Assembly: GCA_048938855.1 (NCBI GenBank)
Contig: JBHLLT010000001.1
Span: forward strand, 288,124 to 352,123
Source: Promethearchaeota archaeon
GTDB lineage: Archaea > Asgardarchaeota > Lokiarchaeia > Sigyniarchaeales > SOKP01
Reading direction: 5' to 3'
DNA: 64,000 nucleotides
The position numbers and the translations under genes are program-made. The notes beneath the pieces are model-generated. The model was given only the letters and a program-made list of their open reading frames with translations. It made no database searches and was not told the DNA's origin. How positions within the stretch are numbered: position 1 is the first letter of the stretch; each line of letters opens with the position of its first letter. This document shows positions 28,496-57,001 of the stretch, in pieces.

Positions 28496-29746
28496 TTAAT
28501 CAGAATTGAAATAATCTGATTCAAAATTAGGATAAATTTTCTTTTTTCTTCCGTCTTTTTCAAATGTTATAAGACCAAGCTCAATTAATTTGTTTAAATG
28601 GTATTGAATGGTTTTGTGATCAACTTTAAATTTTTTAGTTATTAGGTTATTCCACACACCTGGATTTTTTTCAATCATCTCTAAAATCTCGATTGTTAAT
28701 TTACTTTTTTGTAGTTTTAAATCTACGTTAGATATTGGATTTTTTTGATAATATGGAAAATATGCAATAAAGTTCCCAATTCTCTTTTTACCAATTACTT
28801 TATACGTCAATAAAATATCAAGATGCCAAACTAAATTACCCGCAGCTAATCCTGTTCTTCGTAGTAATTCGTTGAAGTGTATTCCAGGTTCATTCAAAAT
28901 TAGATCTATTATCTTATTCCGATTCTCATTCTCTAAAACCTCATCTAAAGATAATCGATGTGCTCCTTTCTCGATTGGTACAGTTCTGGTCCTTAAATAT
29001 TGAAAATAATCTTTTTTAGAAATAGCAACTACTAATGTAATAATTGCGAAAACTATGACAGAACTTGTTATTATTAACCAGGTCCAATCCTCTTGAATCA
29101 TCTCCACTTCATAAAGTGTAATATAATAGTCATTATATGGTTGGAGATCAACAAGACTACTCTCTAAATAGTTTTCAGAGTTTGTCTCATTGAATTTATC
29201 AATTGTTTCAATTATTTGCCAAGAATCTTGACCAGATTCATATAAAGCTAATGAATAGGATGCATCAGGACTAATATCGTATTGTTGGATTTTTCTGTAT
29301 CTAATTGTTAAATTTTCAATTGTATTATTTACCCTTATTTTAAATATACAGTTATACCTATATTGATATCTAAAACTACCTCTTTGAGGGGATTGTAGAG
29401 GTTGCATAACTCCAAAATTTTGCATATTAGTCTTGCTTGATACATTTAATGAAATTGGGTTAGTACTATTAACTATGAAAAAAGTTTGGCGGTTTTCAAG
29501 ATTATTATCATATTCGATACTAAGATTAATTAAAACATTTGTAGACACTTCAAAAGTAAGATTGTTAAGAAAATTATAAGAAACTTTTTCATTTGGTTGA
29601 ACAATATCTTGAGTTGAAAATCCTGAGATAGTCTCTTTTCGAGCATTAATATTTACTAAAAAAAAATTGAATCCTATTAAAATTACTAAAATAGTGAGAA
29701 CAAAATACTTTAGTTCTTTTCTTTTATTTATATTAACAATTCTCAA
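28496..29746 (-). CDS. Membrane-spanning transcription regulator: signal/TM, ectodomain, TM, tandem winged-HTH
   Basis: Two hydrophobic segments flank an Asn-rich domain; C-terminal NRNKIIDLILNEPGIHFNEL..LVWHL and NPGVW..TIQYHLNKL. Confidence 0.8.
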   Translation of the reverse strand: MRIVNINKRKELKYFVLTILVILIGFNFFLVNINARKETISGFSTQDIVQPNEKVSYNFLNNLTFEVSTNVLINLSIEYDNNLENRQTFFIVNSTNPISLNVSSKTNMQNFGVMQPLQSPQRGSFRYQYRYNCIFKIRVNNTIENLTIRYRKIQQYDISPDASYSLALYESGQDSWQIIETIDKFNETNSENYLESSLVDLQPYNDYYITLYEVEMIQEDWTWLIITSSVIVFAIITLVVAISKKDYFQYLRTRTVPIEKGAHRLSLDEVLENENRNKIIDLILNEPGIHFNELLRRTGLAAGNLVWHLDILLTYKVIGKKRIGNFIAYFPYYQKNPISNVDLKLQKSKLTIEILEMIEKNPGVWNNLITKKFKVDHKTIQYHLNKLIELGLITFEKDGRKKKIYPNFESDYFNSD

Positions 29747-30679: not shown

Positions 30680-31651
30680 TTAAAATTTATTTAGCAAGAG
30701 CTCATCAATTTGCTTTATCAAATCTGTTGATAACGGACCTAATTTTAATGCTTTAGCATTTTCTTCAATTTGTTTAACTGTCTTTGCTCCTGGTATTGGA
30801 ATTGTAGTCTCACTAGTAGCCATAAGATAACCAAGTTGCCCTTGAATTAGTGTTCTTCCATCTTGATTCATGATCCGCTTTATTTCAGGAAGTAATTTAT
30901 TAATCGTTAAATAACGTTCTTGAGAAAAATCAACTCCAGCTAACATGTGATCCTCTGCAATTTCAGTATGTTCATTATACTTGCCAGTTAGAATACCAGA
31001 AGCTAATGGGCTTCTAATTAATCCGATTAGATCGTTTTTCTCGCAGAGTTCTATCATTTGATTATTATGTAGAGTTAAGTTCATTGCATATTGTACTGAA
31101 TTGCAATTTTGACCTTCTGCGAACATTTTCATCCGTTCTGGATCATCTGTACTCCATCCATAGCCGCCGATCAAACCCTCTTCCACCAAATCTTCTAAAA
31201 GTAACTGAACTCTTTTTGCATCGTATGGATCATGTTGACTGGAATGCAATTGGTAAATATCAATAAAATCCGTTTGAAGTCGCTTCATACTAGCTCTAAT
31301 TGCTTTTCGAATATAGTCAGGACTAGTATTTTTCTTACTTGGAGTACGAAGATTCCCTTCCTCAAAAACACTGCCAAATTTTGTAGCAATTACAATGTCA
31401 TCTCTATATTCTTTTATTGCTTCACCGAGAACTCTTTCACTTCTTCCCACGCCATAGATATCTGCAGTATCAAATATGTTAATTCCTAATTCTATAGCTC
31501 TATGAACAGTTTTAATCGATTCTTCATCATTTACTTTTCCATAGGCAAGATATGTTCCATCAGATCGTATAAATGGGCCTCCAAGACCAAAACTTCCCAT
31601 TCCTAGGGCACTTACAGTTTTCTTGCTGCATTTTAGCTTTCTTTTTAACAA
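30680..31651 (-). CDS. Aldo/keto reductase
   Basis: FDTADIYG, IATKFG, DIYQLH, SPLASG, PIPGAK. Confidence 0.93.
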   Translation of the reverse strand: MLKRKLKCSKKTVSALGMGSFGLGGPFIRSDGTYLAYGKVNDEESIKTVHRAIELGINIFDTADIYGVGRSERVLGEAIKEYRDDIVIATKFGSVFEEGNLRTPSKKNTSPDYIRKAIRASMKRLQTDFIDIYQLHSSQHDPYDAKRVQLLLEDLVEEGLIGGYGWSTDDPERMKMFAEGQNCNSVQYAMNLTLHNNQMIELCEKNDLIGLIRSPLASGILTGKYNEHTEIAEDHMLAGVDFSQERYLTINKLLPEIKRIMNQDGRTLIQGQLGYLMATSETTIPIPGAKTVKQIEENAKALKLGPLSTDLIKQIDELLLNKF

Positions 31652-32018: not shown

Positions 32019-34274
32019 ATGTCATTAAAGGATTTCACAAAAGAAGTATTCACTCGATATGGTTTTACTGAAGAACATATTAACATATATTTAGTTTATT
32101 TAAGAGTTCCACGAGCAACACCATCTGAAGTATTCATGACTTTAACAGAAGGAAATGAAGCTTTAACATACGATACTGTGTTAGAAGTCACTAATTGGTT
32201 AGTTGAGAAGGGTTTCCTCAAGAGAGTTGAAGGCATTATAGATAGATACATCCCACTTCAGCCATTTTTTGAGTTATTTACTAACGAATCAGAAAAATTT
32301 AGAAACGAAATCGGTGTAATTAAAGATAATATCTTAGCTGATCAATCTAATCGGTTTGAAAAGCTAGAAGAAATTCAAAACAAGAGTATTGGAGAAGTAG
32401 AGACCGCTGTTGATAAACAAATCACTGAATTTTTCGAAGATTCTGATTCAAAGAATAACGATAAGAGGAATCGTATTGATAGTGCTACTAATCGTTTTAC
32501 TGAAACCACTAAAACATTAGAAAGTAATATACATTCTATTATGGATAACCTTAATTCAAACCTAAAAAATATTTCAGAAACTACTGTTAGTAAAAACGAA
32601 ACTGAAATAAATAAAACTAAAGATAATATTACCAGTATAATTTCAAATTTACTTAATGATTTTTCCGCCAGAGTTGAGAATTTAGATAAAGAATTAAAAA
32701 TGGAACTTGATGAGCATGTAGAAAGACATAAAAATACCGCAAATCAACTTAAACCTAAAATAGATCAAATACTGGAAAAGTATCTCGAGCGGATGGATAG
32801 AGTAGTTACCGATTTAAAAGCTAAAATTTCTAACTTATTAAAAGAACATACCACACATTTAAATAATACAACTGATACTCTCCAAACACGTCTAAAAGCT
32901 ATAGTTGATGAGAGGCATCGAACTTTAACGGAGCAAACAAATGAGTTTAAAAATATGACATTGACTTTAATTGATAACTTACTTGAACATGCTAATAGAT
33001 TTACTGATTTTTCAGAAGATATGGGTAAAAAAGGCTTTTTCTGGATGGGAAAGAAAAAGAAATACAAAGCTCGACATGAAACAACTATTCAAAATATTTT
33101 ACAATACACCGAACCAATGAAACCTGATTTTACTAAGACTTGTGATGATTATATCACAAACACTCGAAGTACAACTGATAGTATTAAAACTGATGTAACT
33201 GATACAATGGTAAATGAAAATGATGGATTAGCAAATGAAACTAACGATCTTGACTATAAAGCACAAGAAACTATAGAAGCACAATTAGAGACTCTCGCTA
33301 CTGATTTAGCGGGAGAAGTAGACGATACCTTACAAACTGGTGTGAAAGATTGTTCTGATACAACAATAAAGTTAAAAGATACTTCAGAAAGCTCACTTAA
33401 ATCACACCATAGACAATATGATGAAGCAATAAACAATCACAAAGAAAGTTCATTGAAACATTATACTGATTTTGATCTTGAAGTAAAAAGAATAAGTGCA
33501 GATTGGACCAGAGATGTTAATACTAATTTTGAAAATGGCAAAAGAAATTGTTCAGAAAAAATAGATAGTGAAATACGATTATGGAATGCTGAAGCGAAAG
33601 ATACGGATACTAATTTAACCGATATGTTAGCAGATCATAAATCTAAATATGAACAAAACGCTAAAACACTTCAGAATAGTTTATCAAACACAACAAAAGA
33701 TACTATTCAAAATGTTAAAGATGCAATCGCAGATTTTACTCTGCAATTTATGAATTCAATTGATGATGCTACTGAATTAGGAGAAAGTAGTGAGAGTAAA
33801 TTAATTGATATTCATAATGCTTCAAGTTCAATTCCGGAAATCGCTAAAGTTACAACTTGGCCTGTGGTTGGAAAAGACGCCATGGTTGCGGCCATAAAAG
33901 ATGCTATTTATCGAGTAAAATCTTCGATTATAATCGTCACTCCATATGTGGTACCTGATATTTTACAGGTAGTTTCTGAGTATGCTTTCCAGAAAAAGGC
34001 AGCAAGGTTCATGCTCACCTCCCACTGGGATCTTTCCCAATACTCTGGAATTATAGGGAAGATGAAGCAACTTGGGAACATTCAATTTCGACAATTACAG
34101 ACAGCAGGAGAGTTTTTCGCGGTTACTAGAGATGCGGAGGAAGTCATCCTAGCCCCTGCCACAGATAAGGAAACCGAAATGATTGCTGTGGTTTCCAATC
34201 AAGAAGGATATTCAAAGTTATATAGTCAATTCATAGGACCAATCTTTCAGGCAAATTCGAGACCAATACGGTGA
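32019..34274 (+). CDS. TrmB-like wHTH, about 520-aa helical region, TrmB/PLD-like C-terminal domain
   Basis: YGFTEEHINIY..LVEKGFL..RYIP at the N-terminus; KSSIIIVTP...NIQFRQL...TRDAEEVILAP at the C-terminus. Confidence 0.7.
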   Translation: MSLKDFTKEVFTRYGFTEEHINIYLVYLRVPRATPSEVFMTLTEGNEALTYDTVLEVTNWLVEKGFLKRVEGIIDRYIPLQPFFELFTNESEKFRNEIGVIKDNILADQSNRFEKLEEIQNKSIGEVETAVDKQITEFFEDSDSKNNDKRNRIDSATNRFTETTKTLESNIHSIMDNLNSNLKNISETTVSKNETEINKTKDNITSIISNLLNDFSARVENLDKELKMELDEHVERHKNTANQLKPKIDQILEKYLERMDRVVTDLKAKISNLLKEHTTHLNNTTDTLQTRLKAIVDERHRTLTEQTNEFKNMTLTLIDNLLEHANRFTDFSEDMGKKGFFWMGKKKKYKARHETTIQNILQYTEPMKPDFTKTCDDYITNTRSTTDSIKTDVTDTMVNENDGLANETNDLDYKAQETIEAQLETLATDLAGEVDDTLQTGVKDCSDTTIKLKDTSESSLKSHHRQYDEAINNHKESSLKHYTDFDLEVKRISADWTRDVNTNFENGKRNCSEKIDSEIRLWNAEAKDTDTNLTDMLADHKSKYEQNAKTLQNSLSNTTKDTIQNVKDAIADFTLQFMNSIDDATELGESSESKLIDIHNASSSIPEIAKVTTWPVVGKDAMVAAIKDAIYRVKSSIIIVTPYVVPDILQVVSEYAFQKKAARFMLTSHWDLSQYSGIIGKMKQLGNIQFRQLQTAGEFFAVTRDAEEVILAPATDKETEMIAVVSNQEGYSKLYSQFIGPIFQANSRPIR

Positions 34275-34490: not shown

Positions 34491-34916
34491 CTACCAATCT
34501 TTTTTAATCAATTTGTTTAAATCATGATATTCAGTTATTATCCAATTCATTATCTCTGATACTACTTCTTTAGATTCATTTTGTTCATTAAAAATTCGAT
34601 TTAAGTCATAAACGGGGAGTCCTACTCTGGTATATTGTAATCGTTCTTGCTCAAATCCGTTCTGAAGTAAGTGAACATTTACAATTTCTCTGATAAGTGG
34701 CGAAGTTATCAAATTCAGGTTTGTTGAAACTAAAAATCGTACTACTTGTTCAGTAATTTTTTTTGCATTAATTTTTGTAATATTTGTCTCCTTTAGGAGA
34801 GATTGGTAAATAAATCCTGGATGAAAAATATAGGTACCGGCTTTAGTATGAACTCTTGGCAGAAAATTTGAAAATTCAGGAAGTAGAGCGCTAGATTTCT
34901 TACTTTTTACAGACAC
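34491..34916 (-). CDS. Stand-alone ATP-cone protein resembling the N-terminus of archaeal NrdD
   Basis: SLLKET..AKKITEQV..ITSPLIREIVN..LL..G....YTRVGLPVYD. Confidence 0.75.
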   Translation of the reverse strand: MSVKSKKSSALLPEFSNFLPRVHTKAGTYIFHPGFIYQSLLKETNITKINAKKITEQVVRFLVSTNLNLITSPLIREIVNVHLLQNGFEQERLQYTRVGLPVYDLNRIFNEQNESKEVVSEIMNWIITEYHDLNKLIKKDW

Positions 34917-55284: not shown

Positions 55285-56292
55285 CTACAACCTCCAAGGA
55301 ATTGGTATTTGATCCATTCTCTCTTTAGGTTTAATCTTAGTCTCAGAAATTTCATGACCTCCTTCTGCTTGATATCTTAAAATTCCTGCCCAACCTATCA
55401 TAGCACCATTATCACCAGCATATCTTAAGGGAACAACTTCAAATCTTGCATTATGCTCCTTACTGATATATTCTATCATAGATTGTAGTCTCTTGTTAGC
55501 GGCTACGCCTCCCGTGAGGAGGACTTCATTCTTTTCTGTATGAGCTAAAGCTCTTTCAGTAACTTCTGTTAGCATCCCAAAAGCTGTTTCTTGTAAAGAA
55601 AAAGCAATATCTCCTAAATTATATTTTTTATTATAATCTTCAGATTGAAGTAAATACTTTGTAGCGGTATAAAGTCCTGAGAATGATAGATCCATACCTT
55701 TCACTACATAAGGTAATTGAATATATTCCCTTTTAGATTCTAAAGCTAATTTTTCAATTTTAGGACCGCCTGGATGCTGTAGTCCTGCATCTCTAGCGAA
55801 TGAATCAATCATATTTCCAATTGCTAGATCAAGTGTTTCTCCAAATATTTGATATCTTTTGGATTCAAATGCACTTATAATAGTATTCCCTCCACTCACG
55901 TAAACAGCCAGGGGATCTTTAATGTTACACATTAATCTACCTATTTCTATGTGTGCTATACAATGATTCACTCCTACAATAGGAATATTTAAAAGTTGAC
56001 TTAACATTCGAGCTACTAACGCGCCTATTTTCAGGACTGGACCTAAACCAGGACTTTGGCTAAATGCTATTAAATTTATGTCCCTTATGGAAAGATTGGA
56101 TTCTAATAGGGCTTTATTTATTATCTTCATAAAGTTATTTAAATGTTGTTCCCTGACTAAAGCCGGGTGAAGCCCTCCTTCATCTGGTATGAAAATATCA
56201 TTTATAAGACTATGTACTTTTCCTTTAAAATTAATTATACCTACTGAAAATGTATGTGCTGTAGATTCAATGCCTAAACATATTTTTTCCAT
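55285..56292 (-). CDS. kae1: KEOPS t6A synthase Kae1
   Basis: GIESTAH, GPVLKIG, VNHCIAH, VSGGNT, GGVAAN, DNGAMI. Confidence 0.97.
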   Translation of the reverse strand: MEKICLGIESTAHTFSVGIINFKGKVHSLINDIFIPDEGGLHPALVREQHLNNFMKIINKALLESNLSIRDINLIAFSQSPGLGPVLKIGALVARMLSQLLNIPIVGVNHCIAHIEIGRLMCNIKDPLAVYVSGGNTIISAFESKRYQIFGETLDLAIGNMIDSFARDAGLQHPGGPKIEKLALESKREYIQLPYVVKGMDLSFSGLYTATKYLLQSEDYNKKYNLGDIAFSLQETAFGMLTEVTERALAHTEKNEVLLTGGVAANKRLQSMIEYISKEHNARFEVVPLRYAGDNGAMIGWAGILRYQAEGGHEISETKIKPKERMDQIPIPWRL

Positions 56293-56411
56293 TAATTTCG
56301 CCAAATTTTGAAGCCGGAATAATAATTAATAAAGTTAAATAGTGAAATACTTCTAAATTATTGGTTAAAATCTATTTTTTTAGTTAAGAAAGATTTCAAA
56401 ATTCATTAAAG

Positions 56412-56618
56412 CTATGCTTTTTGACGTTTACGAGGAGTCCGTCTAGTAGTTTTAGTCTTTGGAGCGCCTTTTCTTTTAAATACTGTATATCCACATTTCC
56501 CACAAGACCATCTGTCATAGTGTGATGCTAGAAAGTAGGAGGGACCACATTTAGGACATGTACGGTGCGTTCTAACCAATTTATTTCCTTCAATTTTATA
56601 ATAATTCGAAGAAGTCAT
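56412..56618 (-). CDS. rps27ae: 30S ribosomal protein eS31 (S27ae)
   Basis: CPKCG..FLASHYDRWSCGKCG. Confidence 0.95.
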   Translation of the reverse strand: MTSSNYYKIEGNKLVRTHRTCPKCGPSYFLASHYDRWSCGKCGYTVFKRKGAPKTKTTRRTPRKRQKA

Positions 56619-56647
56619 CTCAATCTGATAAAATATGTTAATCTGTT

Positions 56648-57001
56648 TTAATAATCAAATAGATGTTTATAGGGTTCTTTTCTTTTTTTCAATTGAATGA
56701 TTTCAGTTCTTTTTTCTTTTTCAAGGTTACGTACTTGAATATGGAAAGGCTCGAAGTAAGAGAGCTCCTTAGCATTTTCATATATATAAGCCGTTCCAAT
56801 TGTATACGTTGCTCCAAAATGAGTTCCTAGGTTTTTAATTATTGTTAATTTTTCATTACTTCCTTGCATTGCTGCAATTTTTTCCTTAATTTCTATTCTA
56901 TTTGGAGTCCCTGTACCAAAATTATCAATTCTAAATTTCAGTTCCGTTCGATTTATTAAGGGGTTTTTCTTCTCTTCCAAGATCTCAATATTTAACGACA
57001 T
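56648..57001 (-). CDS. rps24e: 30S ribosomal protein eS24
   Basis: NPLINRTE, TPNR, THFG. Confidence 0.92.
   Translation of the reverse strand: MSLNIEILEEKKNPLINRTELKFRIDNFGTGTPNRIEIKEKIAAMQGSNEKLTIIKNLGTHFGATYTIGTAYIYENAKELSYFEPFHIQVRNLEKEKRTEIIQLKKRKEPYKHLFDY

What the first reader, a model, noticed from the sequence alone, without database searches (positions are those of the whole stretch)
32019..34274. TrmB-like protein with a giant helical arm and a basic-aromatic tip: candidate DNA-membrane tether
Seen: a wHTH N-terminus and a TrmB/PLD-like C-terminus, normally separated by a short helix, are split by about 520 aa of amphipathic helix. Near the midpoint (aa ~335-349, nt 33021-33065) is MGKKGFFWMGKKKKY, which stands out from the acidic rod. 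Inference: the rod folds back as an antiparallel hairpin of roughly 250 residues per arm (about 35-40 nm at 0.15 nm per residue), bringing both globular domains together and presenting a membrane-inserting tip. That could link chromatin to membrane or sense membrane state.
Basis: partly seen in the sequence, partly recalled or inferred. Interest (0 to 1): 0.8.

Follow-up and report, generated by a model that had tools for sequence, protein, structure and literature searches.

The report
TrmB-like protein with giant helical hairpin
An Asgard (Lokiarchaeia-type) archaeon encodes a TrmB/TrmBL2-like protein whose short linker helix has grown into a roughly 38 nm two-helix hairpin with a conserved glycine-bracketed aromatic and lysine-rich tip, so it may link its DNA-regulator-like base to the membrane or another surface, though that job is untested.

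Summary
ORF 32019-34274 (+) encodes 751 aa: a TrmB-type winged helix (1-82), 521 aa of helix (83-603) and a non-catalytic PLD-like domain (613-751) that matches TrmBL2 and TrmB by fold. The motif MGKKGFFWMGKKKKY lies at aa 335-349.

The antiparallel fold-back is strongly supported.
- In 19 relatives of 750-1050 aa, residues added to arm 1 equal those added to arm 2 in every case: 0, 11, 40, 44, 51, 62, 84, 106 or 150.
- Insertion sites, the conservation mirror (i+j = 680-681), a coupled His233/Cys445 loss and the AlphaFold2 break (336-345) all place the apex at GFFW.
- Both arms have an 11-residue (hendecad) periodicity.

The tip and its flank are among the best-conserved parts. Relatives at 35-60% identity carry GFFFGKKKK or RGSAWKALFLGKHK instead.

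The family occurs across Asgard archaea (146 of 201 genomes) and I found no paper describing it.

Function remains inference. A membrane-binding tip is plausible because it resembles the MinD membrane-targeting sequence. DNA binding by the base is doubtful: the TrmB DNA-contact Tyr50 is Leu here, and the DNA-facing surface is net -1 against +5 in TrmBL2.

I rate it a new variant of a known kind, of moderately high interest.

The parts
32019..34274 (+). Complete gene, 751 aa plus stop. It is monocistronic: the upstream neighbour (30680-31651) and the downstream neighbour (34491-34916) are both on the minus strand.
   Evidence: It is single-copy in its own genome with the whole protein as query.
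32019..32264 (+). TrmB-type winged helix-turn-helix, aa 1-82. Helices 18-29, 35-43 and 51-63; wing strands 67-70 and 76-79.
   Evidence: The canonical TrmB Tyr50 and Asp51 align to Leu55 and Glu56.
32265..33023 (+). Arm 1 of the hairpin, aa 83-335. It is an acidic helix (net -13) with a 3.65-residue hydrophobic periodicity (hendecads).
33024..33065 (+). Apex, aa 336-349: GKKGFFWMGKKKKY. A hydrophobic-aromatic insert bracketed by glycines and flanked by lysines.
   Evidence: pLDDT is below 50 for residues 337-346 in the full model. In the fragment model the loop is at 336-339.
33066..33827 (+). Arm 2 of the hairpin, aa 350-603. It is an acidic helix (net -23) with a 3.65-3.7 periodicity and pairs antiparallel with arm 1 (i+j about 680).
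33855..34271 (+). C-terminal alpha/beta domain, aa 613-751. It is PLD-like, as in the first subdomain of the TrmB effector domain and in TrmBL2. The HKD catalytic motif is absent. K634, P642, D705 and E708 are invariant in the 34-sequence full-length alignment A2.
32715..32729 (+). His233-x3-His237 on arm 1, one half of a candidate inter-arm site.
   Evidence: H237 is present in 22 of 22 sequences. H233 is present in 21 of 22, and is lost only in the one sequence that also lacks Cys445.
33348..33353 (+). Asp/His444-Cys445 on arm 2, facing His233 and His237 in the hairpin register (233+445 = 678).
32748..32804 (+). Highly conserved mid-rod block LKPxxxQILEKYLERMD (aa 244-262, with Pro246). Its mirror partner is at aa 421-455 (GVKDCSDTTIKLKD). 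Model confidence dips in both, so this may be an elbow or a docking site.

Best explanation
**Shown**
The gene encodes a cytoplasmic protein built on the TrmBL2 plan: a TrmB winged helix, an amphipathic helix, then a non-catalytic PLD-like domain, with no sugar-binding barrel. The roughly 30-residue connecting helix of ordinary TrmB proteins has grown into an intramolecular antiparallel two-helix hairpin. Each arm has about 255 residues and hendecad periodicity. At 0.15 nm per residue that is about 38 nm.

The winged helix and the PLD-like domain therefore sit together at the base. A 14-residue element bracketed by glycines, GKKGFFWMGKKKKY, sits at the far end. Rod length is fixed within a lineage. 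Between lineages it changes only by equal insertions in both arms, in steps that are 0 or 7 modulo 11.

**Inferred**
The apex is the business end. Its aromatic residues and lysine collar most likely dock on the anionic cytoplasmic face of the membrane, in the manner of short amphipathic membrane-targeting sequences such as E. coli MinD KGFLKRLFGG. The protein would then hold, or sense, whatever the TrmB-like base binds at a set distance from the membrane. That cargo could be DNA if the winged helix is still competent, or otherwise a ligand or partner of the PLD-like domain.

**My odds**
- Hairpin architecture: about 0.9.
- Apex is a functional binding site: about 0.8.
- Apex binds membrane: about 0.4.
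- Base binds DNA: about 0.5.

The confidence value given for this explanation (0.4) is for the whole statement, including the membrane-binding tip.
For: **Architecture**
- Added residues in arm 1 and arm 2, relative to this protein, are identical in every relative tested: 0/0 (four sequences), 11/11, 40/40 (three), 44/44 (two), 51/51, 62/62, 84/84, 106/106 and 150/150 (two). For L006 the match holds after allowing for an 11-residue deletion inside the tip-proximal block.
- The insertion sites face each other: about residue 165 in arm 1 and 507-522 in arm 2, summing to 672-687.
- Smoothed conservation of arm 1 correlates best with arm 2 at i+j = 680-681 (r = 0.45; the correlation falls to -0.27 off register).
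- His233 and Cys445 are lost together in the single sequence that lacks either.
- AlphaFold2 gives two long helices with the break at 338-345.
- The 215-470 fragment model has pLDDT 85 and pTM 0.50. It aligns over 236-251 of its 256 residues to chemoreceptor cytoplasmic hairpins and an SMC arm (Z 11.2-11.6; a second SMC arm fragment, 5NNV, gives Z 9.2 over 233 residues).
- Both arms have a hydrophobic periodicity of 3.65-3.7.

**Base**
- TrmB and TrmBL2 matches by sequence profile.
- TrmB, TrmBL2 and PLD-family matches by fold.

**Tip as a functional site**
- Residues 317-331 are the most conserved 15-mer of the whole protein, and 344-358 rank seventh.
- Tip variants keep two bracketing glycines, two or three aromatic or large hydrophobic residues, and a K/R/H collar: GFFW[MIA]GKKKKY, GFFFGKKKK and RGSA[WF]KALF[LV]GKHK.
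- Relatives from other Asgard classes often have a Gly/Pro-containing, basic, aromatic segment at the exact rod midpoint.
- The arms are acidic, so only the tip is attracted to anionic surfaces.
- The tip resembles the MinD membrane-targeting sequence KGFLKRLFGG (sequence confirmed in PMC5471200).

**Distribution**
- Matches in 146 of 201 Asgard genomes searched, and in 38 of 40 genomes of its own family.
Against: - The membrane reading rests on composition and analogy alone.
- Hydrophobic moments of the tips as ideal helices are modest (0.17-0.37).
- In the RGSAWKALFLG variants, W, L and F fall at i, i+3 and i+4. They could therefore simply continue the hairpin core rather than be exposed.
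- I could not inspect model coordinates, so exposure of FFW is argued only from the glycine brackets, the 13-residue spacing between the last core pair (Met335/Tyr349), and low pLDDT.
- DNA binding by the base is doubtful. TrmB Tyr50 aligns to Leu55. The recognition helix plus wing has 4 K/R and 5 D/E, against 7 and 2 in TrmBL2.
- No conserved neighbouring gene hints at a pathway.
Confidence: 0.4

Rival explanations
1. Same hairpin, but the basic-aromatic apex binds nucleic acid and the TrmB-like base acts as the oligomerisation hub. Rods would radiate from a dimer or tetramer and their tips would bridge or space DNA segments tens of nanometres apart, giving a chromatin scaffold without membrane contact.
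For: - The apex has 8 K/R and no D/E, plus aromatic residues, a composition also typical of nucleic-acid binders.
- The winged helix lacks the TrmB DNA-contact Tyr, and its DNA-facing surface is net -1.
- The closest fold matches are TrmBL2.
- The TrmB-family review (PMC4158304) describes its T. kodakarensis homologue as a general chromosomal protein and lists TrmB-family members as dimers, tetramers or octamers.
Against: - Three consecutive large hydrophobic residues between glycines (FFW, FFF), or an amphipathic AWKALFL segment, are unusual for a DNA-binding loop.
- The strongly acidic arms would repel DNA near the tip.
- No oligomer could be shown here.
Confidence: 0.2
2. Same hairpin, but the apex is a protein-docking or self-association site. 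Examples are the chemoreceptor hairpin tip that binds CheA and CheW, or the Rad50 hook. It would connect the TrmB-like base to a cytoskeletal, division or membrane-protein partner, or join two rods end to end.
For: - The tip and the residues before it (317-331) are the most conserved part of the protein.
- In chemoreceptors the hairpin tip is the conserved interaction region, and hairpin length changes by symmetric insertions, the same evolutionary pattern found here (PMC5907407).
- A second conserved pair of mirrored blocks in mid-rod (aa 244-262 and 421-455) suggests further docking surfaces.
Against: - Tip sequence changes markedly between sister groups (GFFWMGKKKK against RGSAWKALFLGKHK) while keeping only its physico-chemical character. 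That suits a generic surface such as lipid better than a specific protein groove.
- No conserved neighbouring gene suggests a partner.
Confidence: 0.2
3. The arms pair between two chains rather than within one. Two extended chains would lie antiparallel, arm 1 of one with arm 2 of the other. This gives a rod of about 76 nm with a winged helix plus PLD-like pair at each end and both basic-aromatic segments at the centre.
For: - Equal arm insertions, the conservation mirror and the His233/Cys445 coupling constrain the antiparallel register. They do not show whether pairing is within one chain or between two.
- TrmB dimers have been described as domain-swapped around the connecting helix (PMC4158304).
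Against: - Three glycines (336, 339, 344) bracket the midpoint, which fits a chain reversal.
- AlphaFold2 folds both the full chain and the fragment back on themselves, and the fragment model matches solved hairpins.
- A hairpin reproduces the TrmB arrangement, in which the winged helix and PLD-like domain of one chain are neighbours.
Confidence: 0.1
4. The rod is an exchangeable apolipoprotein-like or phasin-like lipid binder. Its 11-residue amphipathic repeats would open and lie along a lipid surface over their whole length, so the tip would have no special role.
For: - PF01442 Apolipoprotein hit at E 1.7e-8, and weak hits to apolipoproteins A-IV and A-I in the PDB.
- Hendecad periodicity.
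- A phasin appears among the fold matches at Z 9.2.
Against: - The Pfam score of 34.8 bits is far below the 90-bit cut-off.
- Only 23-28% of arm residues are strongly hydrophobic, 31-33% are S/T/N/Q, and the arms are net -13 and -23. This is a narrow seam typical of a coiled coil, not a broad lipid-binding face.
- Exact co-variation of arm lengths shows the arms need each other.
- Z values near 9 are background for long helices (note).
Confidence: 0.05

Closest known systems
TrmBL2 (Thermococcales chromatin protein; PDB 5BPD, 5BPI, 5BOX, 5BQT) and TrmB (PDB 3QPH, 2F5T)
   Same: - Same domain order: TrmB winged helix, amphipathic helix, PLD-like alpha/beta domain.
- Like TrmBL2, it ends without the sugar-binding barrel.
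- Profile E-values are 1.1e-9 (TrmB) and 1.3e-8 (TrmBL2) for the N-terminus.
- Foldseek E-values are 6.7e-8 to 5.5e-7 for the C-terminus.
   Different: - The connecting helix is 521 aa folded as a hairpin, not about 30 aa.
- The DNA-contact Tyr50 is Leu55.
- The recognition helix plus wing is net -1 rather than +5.
- The protein itself scores below Pfam cut-offs for both TrmB domains.
- It carries a conserved basic-aromatic apex with no counterpart in TrmB proteins.
Cytoplasmic signalling hairpin of methyl-accepting chemoreceptors (for example PDB 2CH7, 1QU7, 3ZX6)
   Same: - A long antiparallel helical hairpin with the most conserved region at the tip.
- Length classes arise by symmetric insertions in both arms (PMC5907407).
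- The fragment model aligns over 251 of 256 residues to 2CH7 (Z 11.2, rmsd 8.5).
   Different: - No sequence relationship: there is no MCP signal-domain hit.
- The periodicity is hendecad rather than heptad.
- The base is a TrmB-like module rather than HAMP and transmembrane segments.
- The tip is basic and aromatic, not the chemoreceptor CheA/CheW-binding tip.
- A Z of about 11 is within the background for long helices.
SMC, Rad50 and MukB coiled-coil arms
   Same: - Tens-of-nanometre antiparallel intramolecular coiled coil with matched arm lengths.
- Globular N- and C-terminal parts are brought together at one end, with a special element (hinge or hook) at the other.
- Fold matches to SMC arm fragments 5XG2 and 5NNV.
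   Different: - No ABC ATPase head, hinge or zinc hook.
- The rod is a plain hendecad hairpin.
- The base is a transcription-factor-like module.
Short amphipathic membrane-targeting sequences (E. coli MinD KGFLKRLFGG)
   Same: The apex has the same make-up, KKGF followed by hydrophobic and basic residues and glycines. Compare KKGFFWMGKKKK with KGFLKRLFGG (PMC5471200).
   Different: - It lies inside the chain at a hairpin apex, not at a C-terminus.
- Membrane binding is untested.
- The resemblance is compositional, not homologous.

Membership tests
TrmB family (PF01978 winged helix plus PF11495-type C-terminal domain) | N-terminal TrmB-type winged helix-turn-helix | tested here: met
   - 25 of 28 family N-termini hit PF01978 (best 1e-12).
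- The family profile hits TrmB 3QPH at 1.1e-9 and TrmBL2 at 1.3e-8.
- This protein alone scores 16.6 bits, below the 25.6-bit cut-off, so membership rests on the family profile.
TrmB family | Recognition-helix Tyr50 and Asp51, the DNA-contact residues listed for TrmB, TrmBL1 and TrmBL2 (PMC4158304) | tested here: not met
   - In the profile alignment to 3QPH, Tyr50 aligns to Leu55 and Asp51 to Glu56.
- The position is L, V, I or G in orthologues.
- MreA also lacks this Tyr yet regulates genes, so this alone does not exclude DNA binding.
TrmB family | Amphipathic helix directly after the winged helix (dimerising coiled coil, about 30 aa in TrmB) | tested here: inconclusive
   An amphipathic helix does start at residue 83, but it runs for 255 residues and returns as a hairpin. 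Dimerisation could not be shown.
TrmB family | PLD-like first subdomain of the effector-binding domain | tested here: met
   - Foldseek: 5BPD 6.7e-8, 2F5T 1.1e-7 (rmsd 4.0 over 145 columns), 3QPH 5.5e-7.
- 9 of 40 family C-domains hit PF11495 (best 1.6e-6) and 5 of 40 hit FilR1_middle.
TrmB family (sugar-sensing TrmB and TrmBL1 type) | Second subdomain: sugar-binding beta-barrel with Gly320 and Glu326 | tested here: not met
   The chain ends at residue 751, directly after the PLD-like domain. TrmBL2 also lacks the sugar-binding part (PMC4158304).
TrmB family | DNA binding | not testable with these tools
   Only composition is available. The recognition helix plus wing has 4 K/R and 5 D/E, against 7 and 2 in TrmBL2. 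The wing Arg76-Tyr77 is conserved.
Phospholipase D superfamily (catalytic) | HxKx4D (HKD) catalytic motif | tested here: not met
   The fold matches Nuc, Zucchini, F13 and FAM83. By my reading of the pattern, not by a structural alignment, the corresponding strand is FFAVTRDAEEVILAP, with no His or Lys at the motif positions.
Apolipoprotein A1/A4/E (PF01442) | Score above the Pfam gathering threshold | tested here: not met
   34.8 bits against a cut-off of 90. The hit reflects the shared 11-residue periodicity.
SMC/Rad50-type coiled-coil ATPases | ABC ATPase head formed by the N- and C-termini | tested here: not met
   No ATPase family was detected. The termini are a winged helix and a PLD-like domain.
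Chemoreceptor-type signalling hairpin (analogy only) | Symmetric insertions and deletions in the two arms, with a conserved tip | tested here: met
   Arm insertions are equal in all 19 relatives tested, and the tip flank is the most conserved 15-mer. There is no sequence match to the MCP signal domain, so it behaves like this kind of hairpin but is not a member.

The most novel reading that the evidence does not exclude
An Asgard-wide family of molecular rulers. A TrmB-derived DNA-binding base would be held at a lineage-specific, hendecad-quantised distance (about 38 nm here, up to about 60 nm in close relatives) from the inner face of the membrane by a rigid hairpin with a membrane-inserting apex. 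This would be a prokaryotic chromatin-to-membrane tether in the closest archaeal relatives of eukaryotes. It might be stapled by a His2-Cys metal site, or switched by the redox state of that site.
Probability: 0.15. Interest if true: 0.9.

Novelty: new variant of a known kind. Interest (0 to 1): 0.62.

Why it matters
**If the tip binds membrane and the base binds DNA**
This would be a fixed-length physical link between genome and membrane in Asgard archaea. It would bear on how DNA is organised relative to the cell envelope in the lineage that gave rise to eukaryotes. It would also be directly testable in the cultured Lokiarchaeia.

**Independent of function**
- The family is a very clean natural example of coiled-coil length evolution. 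Insertions are exactly matched in both arms and are quantised at 0 or 7 modulo 11.
- That pattern gives the hairpin register from sequence alone.
- The family is a sizeable, undescribed expansion of the TrmB fold. It matches in about three quarters of the Asgard genomes searched, with open frames of about 580 to 1800 aa at the matches.

Tried and rejected
- **Homodimer test.** Two copies of the 215-470 fragment gave no verdict (median score 0.38, mark 0.42, controls 0.00). This counts neither for nor against dimerisation.
- **Mutual information.** Analysis of 118 orthologues (Neff 42) was dominated by phylogeny. Among the top 60 arm 1 by arm 2 pairs, 20% had i+j in 672-692 against an 8.9% background. 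This is a weak hint that I do not rely on.
- **Foldseek on the fragment** gave nothing at E <= 0.001.
- **Locus search.** Taxonomic range therefore rests on source names, the Atlas and the phylum search.
- **Direct hits.** Pfam, NCBIfam and PDB sequence hits for the whole protein were all below threshold and reflect helical periodicity only: Apolipoprotein, ZorA, V-SNARE, Exonuc_VII_L, Baculo_PEP_C.
- **Gene neighbourhood.** Peptidase M24, nitroreductase, aldo-keto reductase, Fae-HPS and others are broadly syntenic in relatives, but none is a consistent immediate partner.
- **Literature.** Searches for Asgard with TrmB, TrmBL2, coiled-coil or apolipoprotein found no description of this protein.
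- **Helical hydrophobic moment of the tips** was unremarkable.
- **Model coordinates** are not exposed by the tools, so burial of FFW could not be measured.
Full report
**1. What is there**

The window is AT-rich (about 30% G+C). ORF 32019-34274 (+) translates without stops to 751 aa. Its neighbours on both sides are on the opposite strand and encode unrelated enzymes: an aldo-keto reductase upstream, a small unknown protein and an FG-GAP protein downstream. The gene therefore stands alone.

The closest database proteins come from Lokiarchaeia/Promethearchaeota metagenome bins. More than 100 clusters at 72-96% identity are 751 aa, nearly all of those listed. An alignment of 28 of them has no internal indel. 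In the window's own genome the whole protein matches only itself.

**2. The two ends**

N-terminus. On its own the N-terminus gives only sub-threshold winged-helix hits. At family level the picture is clear. Of 28 family N-termini, 25 hit PF01978 TrmB, and the family profile finds TrmB (3QPH, 1.1e-9) and TrmBL2 (5BPD, 1.3e-8) in the PDB.

C-terminus. The 140 C-terminal residues have no Pfam hit by themselves. However, 9 of 40 family members hit PF11495 Regulator_TrmB, 5 hit FilR1_middle and 2 hit PLDc_2. The AlphaFold2 model of the whole protein (mean pLDDT 76.8) has TrmBL2 and TrmB as its best Foldseek matches. Nuc, Zucchini, F13, FAM83 and other PLD-fold proteins follow.

The HKD catalytic motif is absent, and the chain ends without the sugar-binding barrel of TrmB. 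The core is therefore TrmBL2-like: winged helix, helix, PLD-like domain.

**3. The middle is an antiparallel hairpin**

AlphaFold2 predicts helix 83-337, a low-confidence loop at 338-345, and helix 346-603 with one short break at 365-366. Stronger evidence comes from evolution.

- **Equal arm insertions.** I anchored three conserved blocks with HMMs: the N-terminal block, a tip-proximal block and the C-terminal block. I then measured how many residues relatives of 750-1050 aa add between them. The extra residues in arm 1 and arm 2 are identical in every one of the 19 relatives tested: 0/0 (four sequences), 11/11, 40/40 (three), 44/44 (two), 51/51, 62/62, 84/84, 106/106 and 150/150 (two). In L006 the match holds after allowing for an 11-residue deletion inside the tip-proximal block.
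- **Quantised lengths.** All non-zero insert lengths are 0 or 7 modulo 11. This fits the 3.65-3.7-residue hydrophobic periodicity of both arms (hendecads).
- **Facing insertion sites.** The insertions lie at about residue 165 in arm 1 and residues 507-522 in arm 2.
- **Conservation mirror.** Conservation along arm 1 mirrors arm 2 best at i+j = 680-681, which centres on residue 340.
- **Coupled loss.** His233 on arm 1 and Cys445 on arm 2 (sum 678) are each present in 21 of 22 diverse relatives. Both are missing in the same single sequence.
- **Fragment model.** A model of residues 215-470 (pLDDT 85, pTM 0.50) aligns over nearly its whole length to solved antiparallel hairpins, namely chemoreceptor cytoplasmic domains and SMC arms. 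The Z values of 9.2-11.6 are within the background for long helices. They describe the model's shape and do not indicate homology.

Symmetric arm insertions with a conserved tip are exactly what is known for chemoreceptor hairpins (PMC5907407).

These data fix the antiparallel register. They do not strictly tell an intramolecular hairpin from a two-chain antiparallel pairing. The three glycines at the midpoint and the models favour the hairpin.

**4. The apex**

Residues 336-349 are GKKGFFWMGKKKKY. By the hendecad pattern, the last core pair appears to be Met335 and Tyr349. The 13 residues between them are more than a tight turn needs and are bracketed by Gly336, Gly339 and Gly344. The model is unsure of them (pLDDT below 50). 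Three consecutive large hydrophobic residues cannot all face a two-helix core, so some are probably exposed.

The tip has 8 K/R and no acidic residue, while the arms are net -13 and -23. Residues 317-331, just before the tip, are the most conserved 15-mer of the protein.

In relatives at 35-60% identity the tip reads [VT]GFFFGKKKK or RG[SA]A[WF]K[AS]L[FL]xGKHK. This keeps the glycine brackets, the aromatic or hydrophobic residues and the basic collar. In other Asgard classes (Jordarchaeales and others) the exact rod midpoint often carries a Gly/Pro-containing basic-aromatic segment such as KTSFFGSSG, KIGFRKPFP or GRRLFSGKK.

**5. What it probably does**

The anatomy is a rigid, acidic spacer of about 38 nm, whose length is held constant within a lineage, with a TrmB-like module at one end and a basic-hydrophobic element at the other. 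It argues that the apex contacts an anionic, partly hydrophobic surface at a set distance from whatever the base holds.

The inner face of the membrane is the simplest candidate. The tip resembles the MinD membrane-targeting sequence KGFLKRLFGG (PMC5471200). Nothing here tests lipid binding.

- The residues reported as important for DNA binding in TrmB, TrmBL1 and TrmBL2 (Tyr50, Asp51; PMC4158304) align to Leu55 and Glu56.
- The recognition helix plus wing is net -1, against +5 in TrmBL2.
- The same genome also encodes canonical TrmB-like proteins that keep the Tyr.

Serious rivals are that the tip binds nucleic acid with the base acting as an oligomerisation hub, or that the tip docks on a protein or on another tip.

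An apolipoprotein-like, lipid-coating rod is unlikely. The hydrophobic seam is narrow (23-28% strongly hydrophobic residues), and the arms evidently need each other.

**6. Distribution and novelty**

The protein matches in 146 of 201 Asgard genomes sampled across the phylum, in 66 of 85 high-quality genomes, and in 38 of 40 genomes of its own family. Open frames at the matches range from about 580 to about 1800 aa.

Every relative that carries a name comes from an Asgard lineage: Loki-, Hel-, Hod-, Jord- and Baldrarchaeia. The nearest Atlas clusters are Promethearchaeota.

The same genome holds at least three paralogues with shorter rods and a free-standing coil plus PLD-like protein.

Searches of the paper library found no description of this family.

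I classify it as a new variant of a known kind: a TrmB/TrmBL2 core with a giant, length-quantised hairpin and a specialised apex.

**7. Verdict**

- The structural inference is strongly supported.
- The functional inference is plausible but untested, and its DNA-binding half is weakened.
- The dimer prediction gave no verdict and is not used.

Noticed in passing
window 32715-32729 and 33348-33353 (aa 233-237 and 444-445): His233-x3-His237 on arm 1 faces Asp/His444-Cys445 on arm 2 in the hairpin register. His233 and Cys445 are each kept in 21 of 22 diverse relatives, and both are lost in the same sequence (P0124). This may be a metal staple or a redox-sensitive contact between the arms.
   Followed up: partly
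window 32748-32804 (aa 244-262) and 33279-33383 (aa 421-455): Two mirrored, very conserved mid-rod blocks: LKPxxxQILEKYLERMD, with an invariant proline inside the helix, and LATDLAGEVDxTLQxGVKDCSDTTIKLKD, with two glycines. Model confidence dips at both. They may form an elbow or a docking site about 90 residues from the tip.
   Followed up: partly
relatives P0122-P0127 and loci L002-L011: All eight distinct rod insertions (11, 40, 44, 51, 62, 84, 106 and 150 residues per arm) are 0 or 7 modulo 11. Several differ from each other by exactly 44. The rod seems to grow by hendecad blocks, often four at a time, after a single 7-residue step.
   Followed up: partly
own genome, outside the window: L017 (G000:C62, matches at 55372-56922), L015 (G000:C16, 35538-36962), L018 (G000:C6, 136853-137989): Three paralogues share the winged helix, rod and PLD-like plan but have rods of only about 200-270 aa. 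Two of them add a proline-rich linker and a shared C-terminal helical module ending in KLNL. Their mid-rod segments are not aromatic-basic.
   Followed up: partly
own genome L016 (G000:C6:105732-106178) and database proteins P0156, P0158, P0161, P0178, P0187, P0192, P0195-P0197: Free-standing PLD-like domains of this family exist. One in this genome has an N-terminal coiled coil. Many database proteins of 186-227 aa have a very lysine-rich C-terminal tail. They could pair with the PLD-like domain of the long proteins.
   Followed up: no
own genome L022 (G000:C34:228291-228593, upstream of the window) and L024 (G000:C49:388102-388434): Canonical short TrmB-like proteins (about 270 and 340 aa) that keep the recognition-helix Tyr (PYSRIYN, YTQVYHN). 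The loss of that Tyr in the long-rod protein is therefore specific to this protein and not a trait of the genome.
   Followed up: no
window 28496-29746 (-): The gene two upstream, on the opposite strand, encodes a 416-aa protein whose C-terminal part has HVO_0163-type and HTH_24 winged-helix domains. The same gene lies at the same relative position in relative L013. No link to the hairpin protein was apparent.
   Followed up: no
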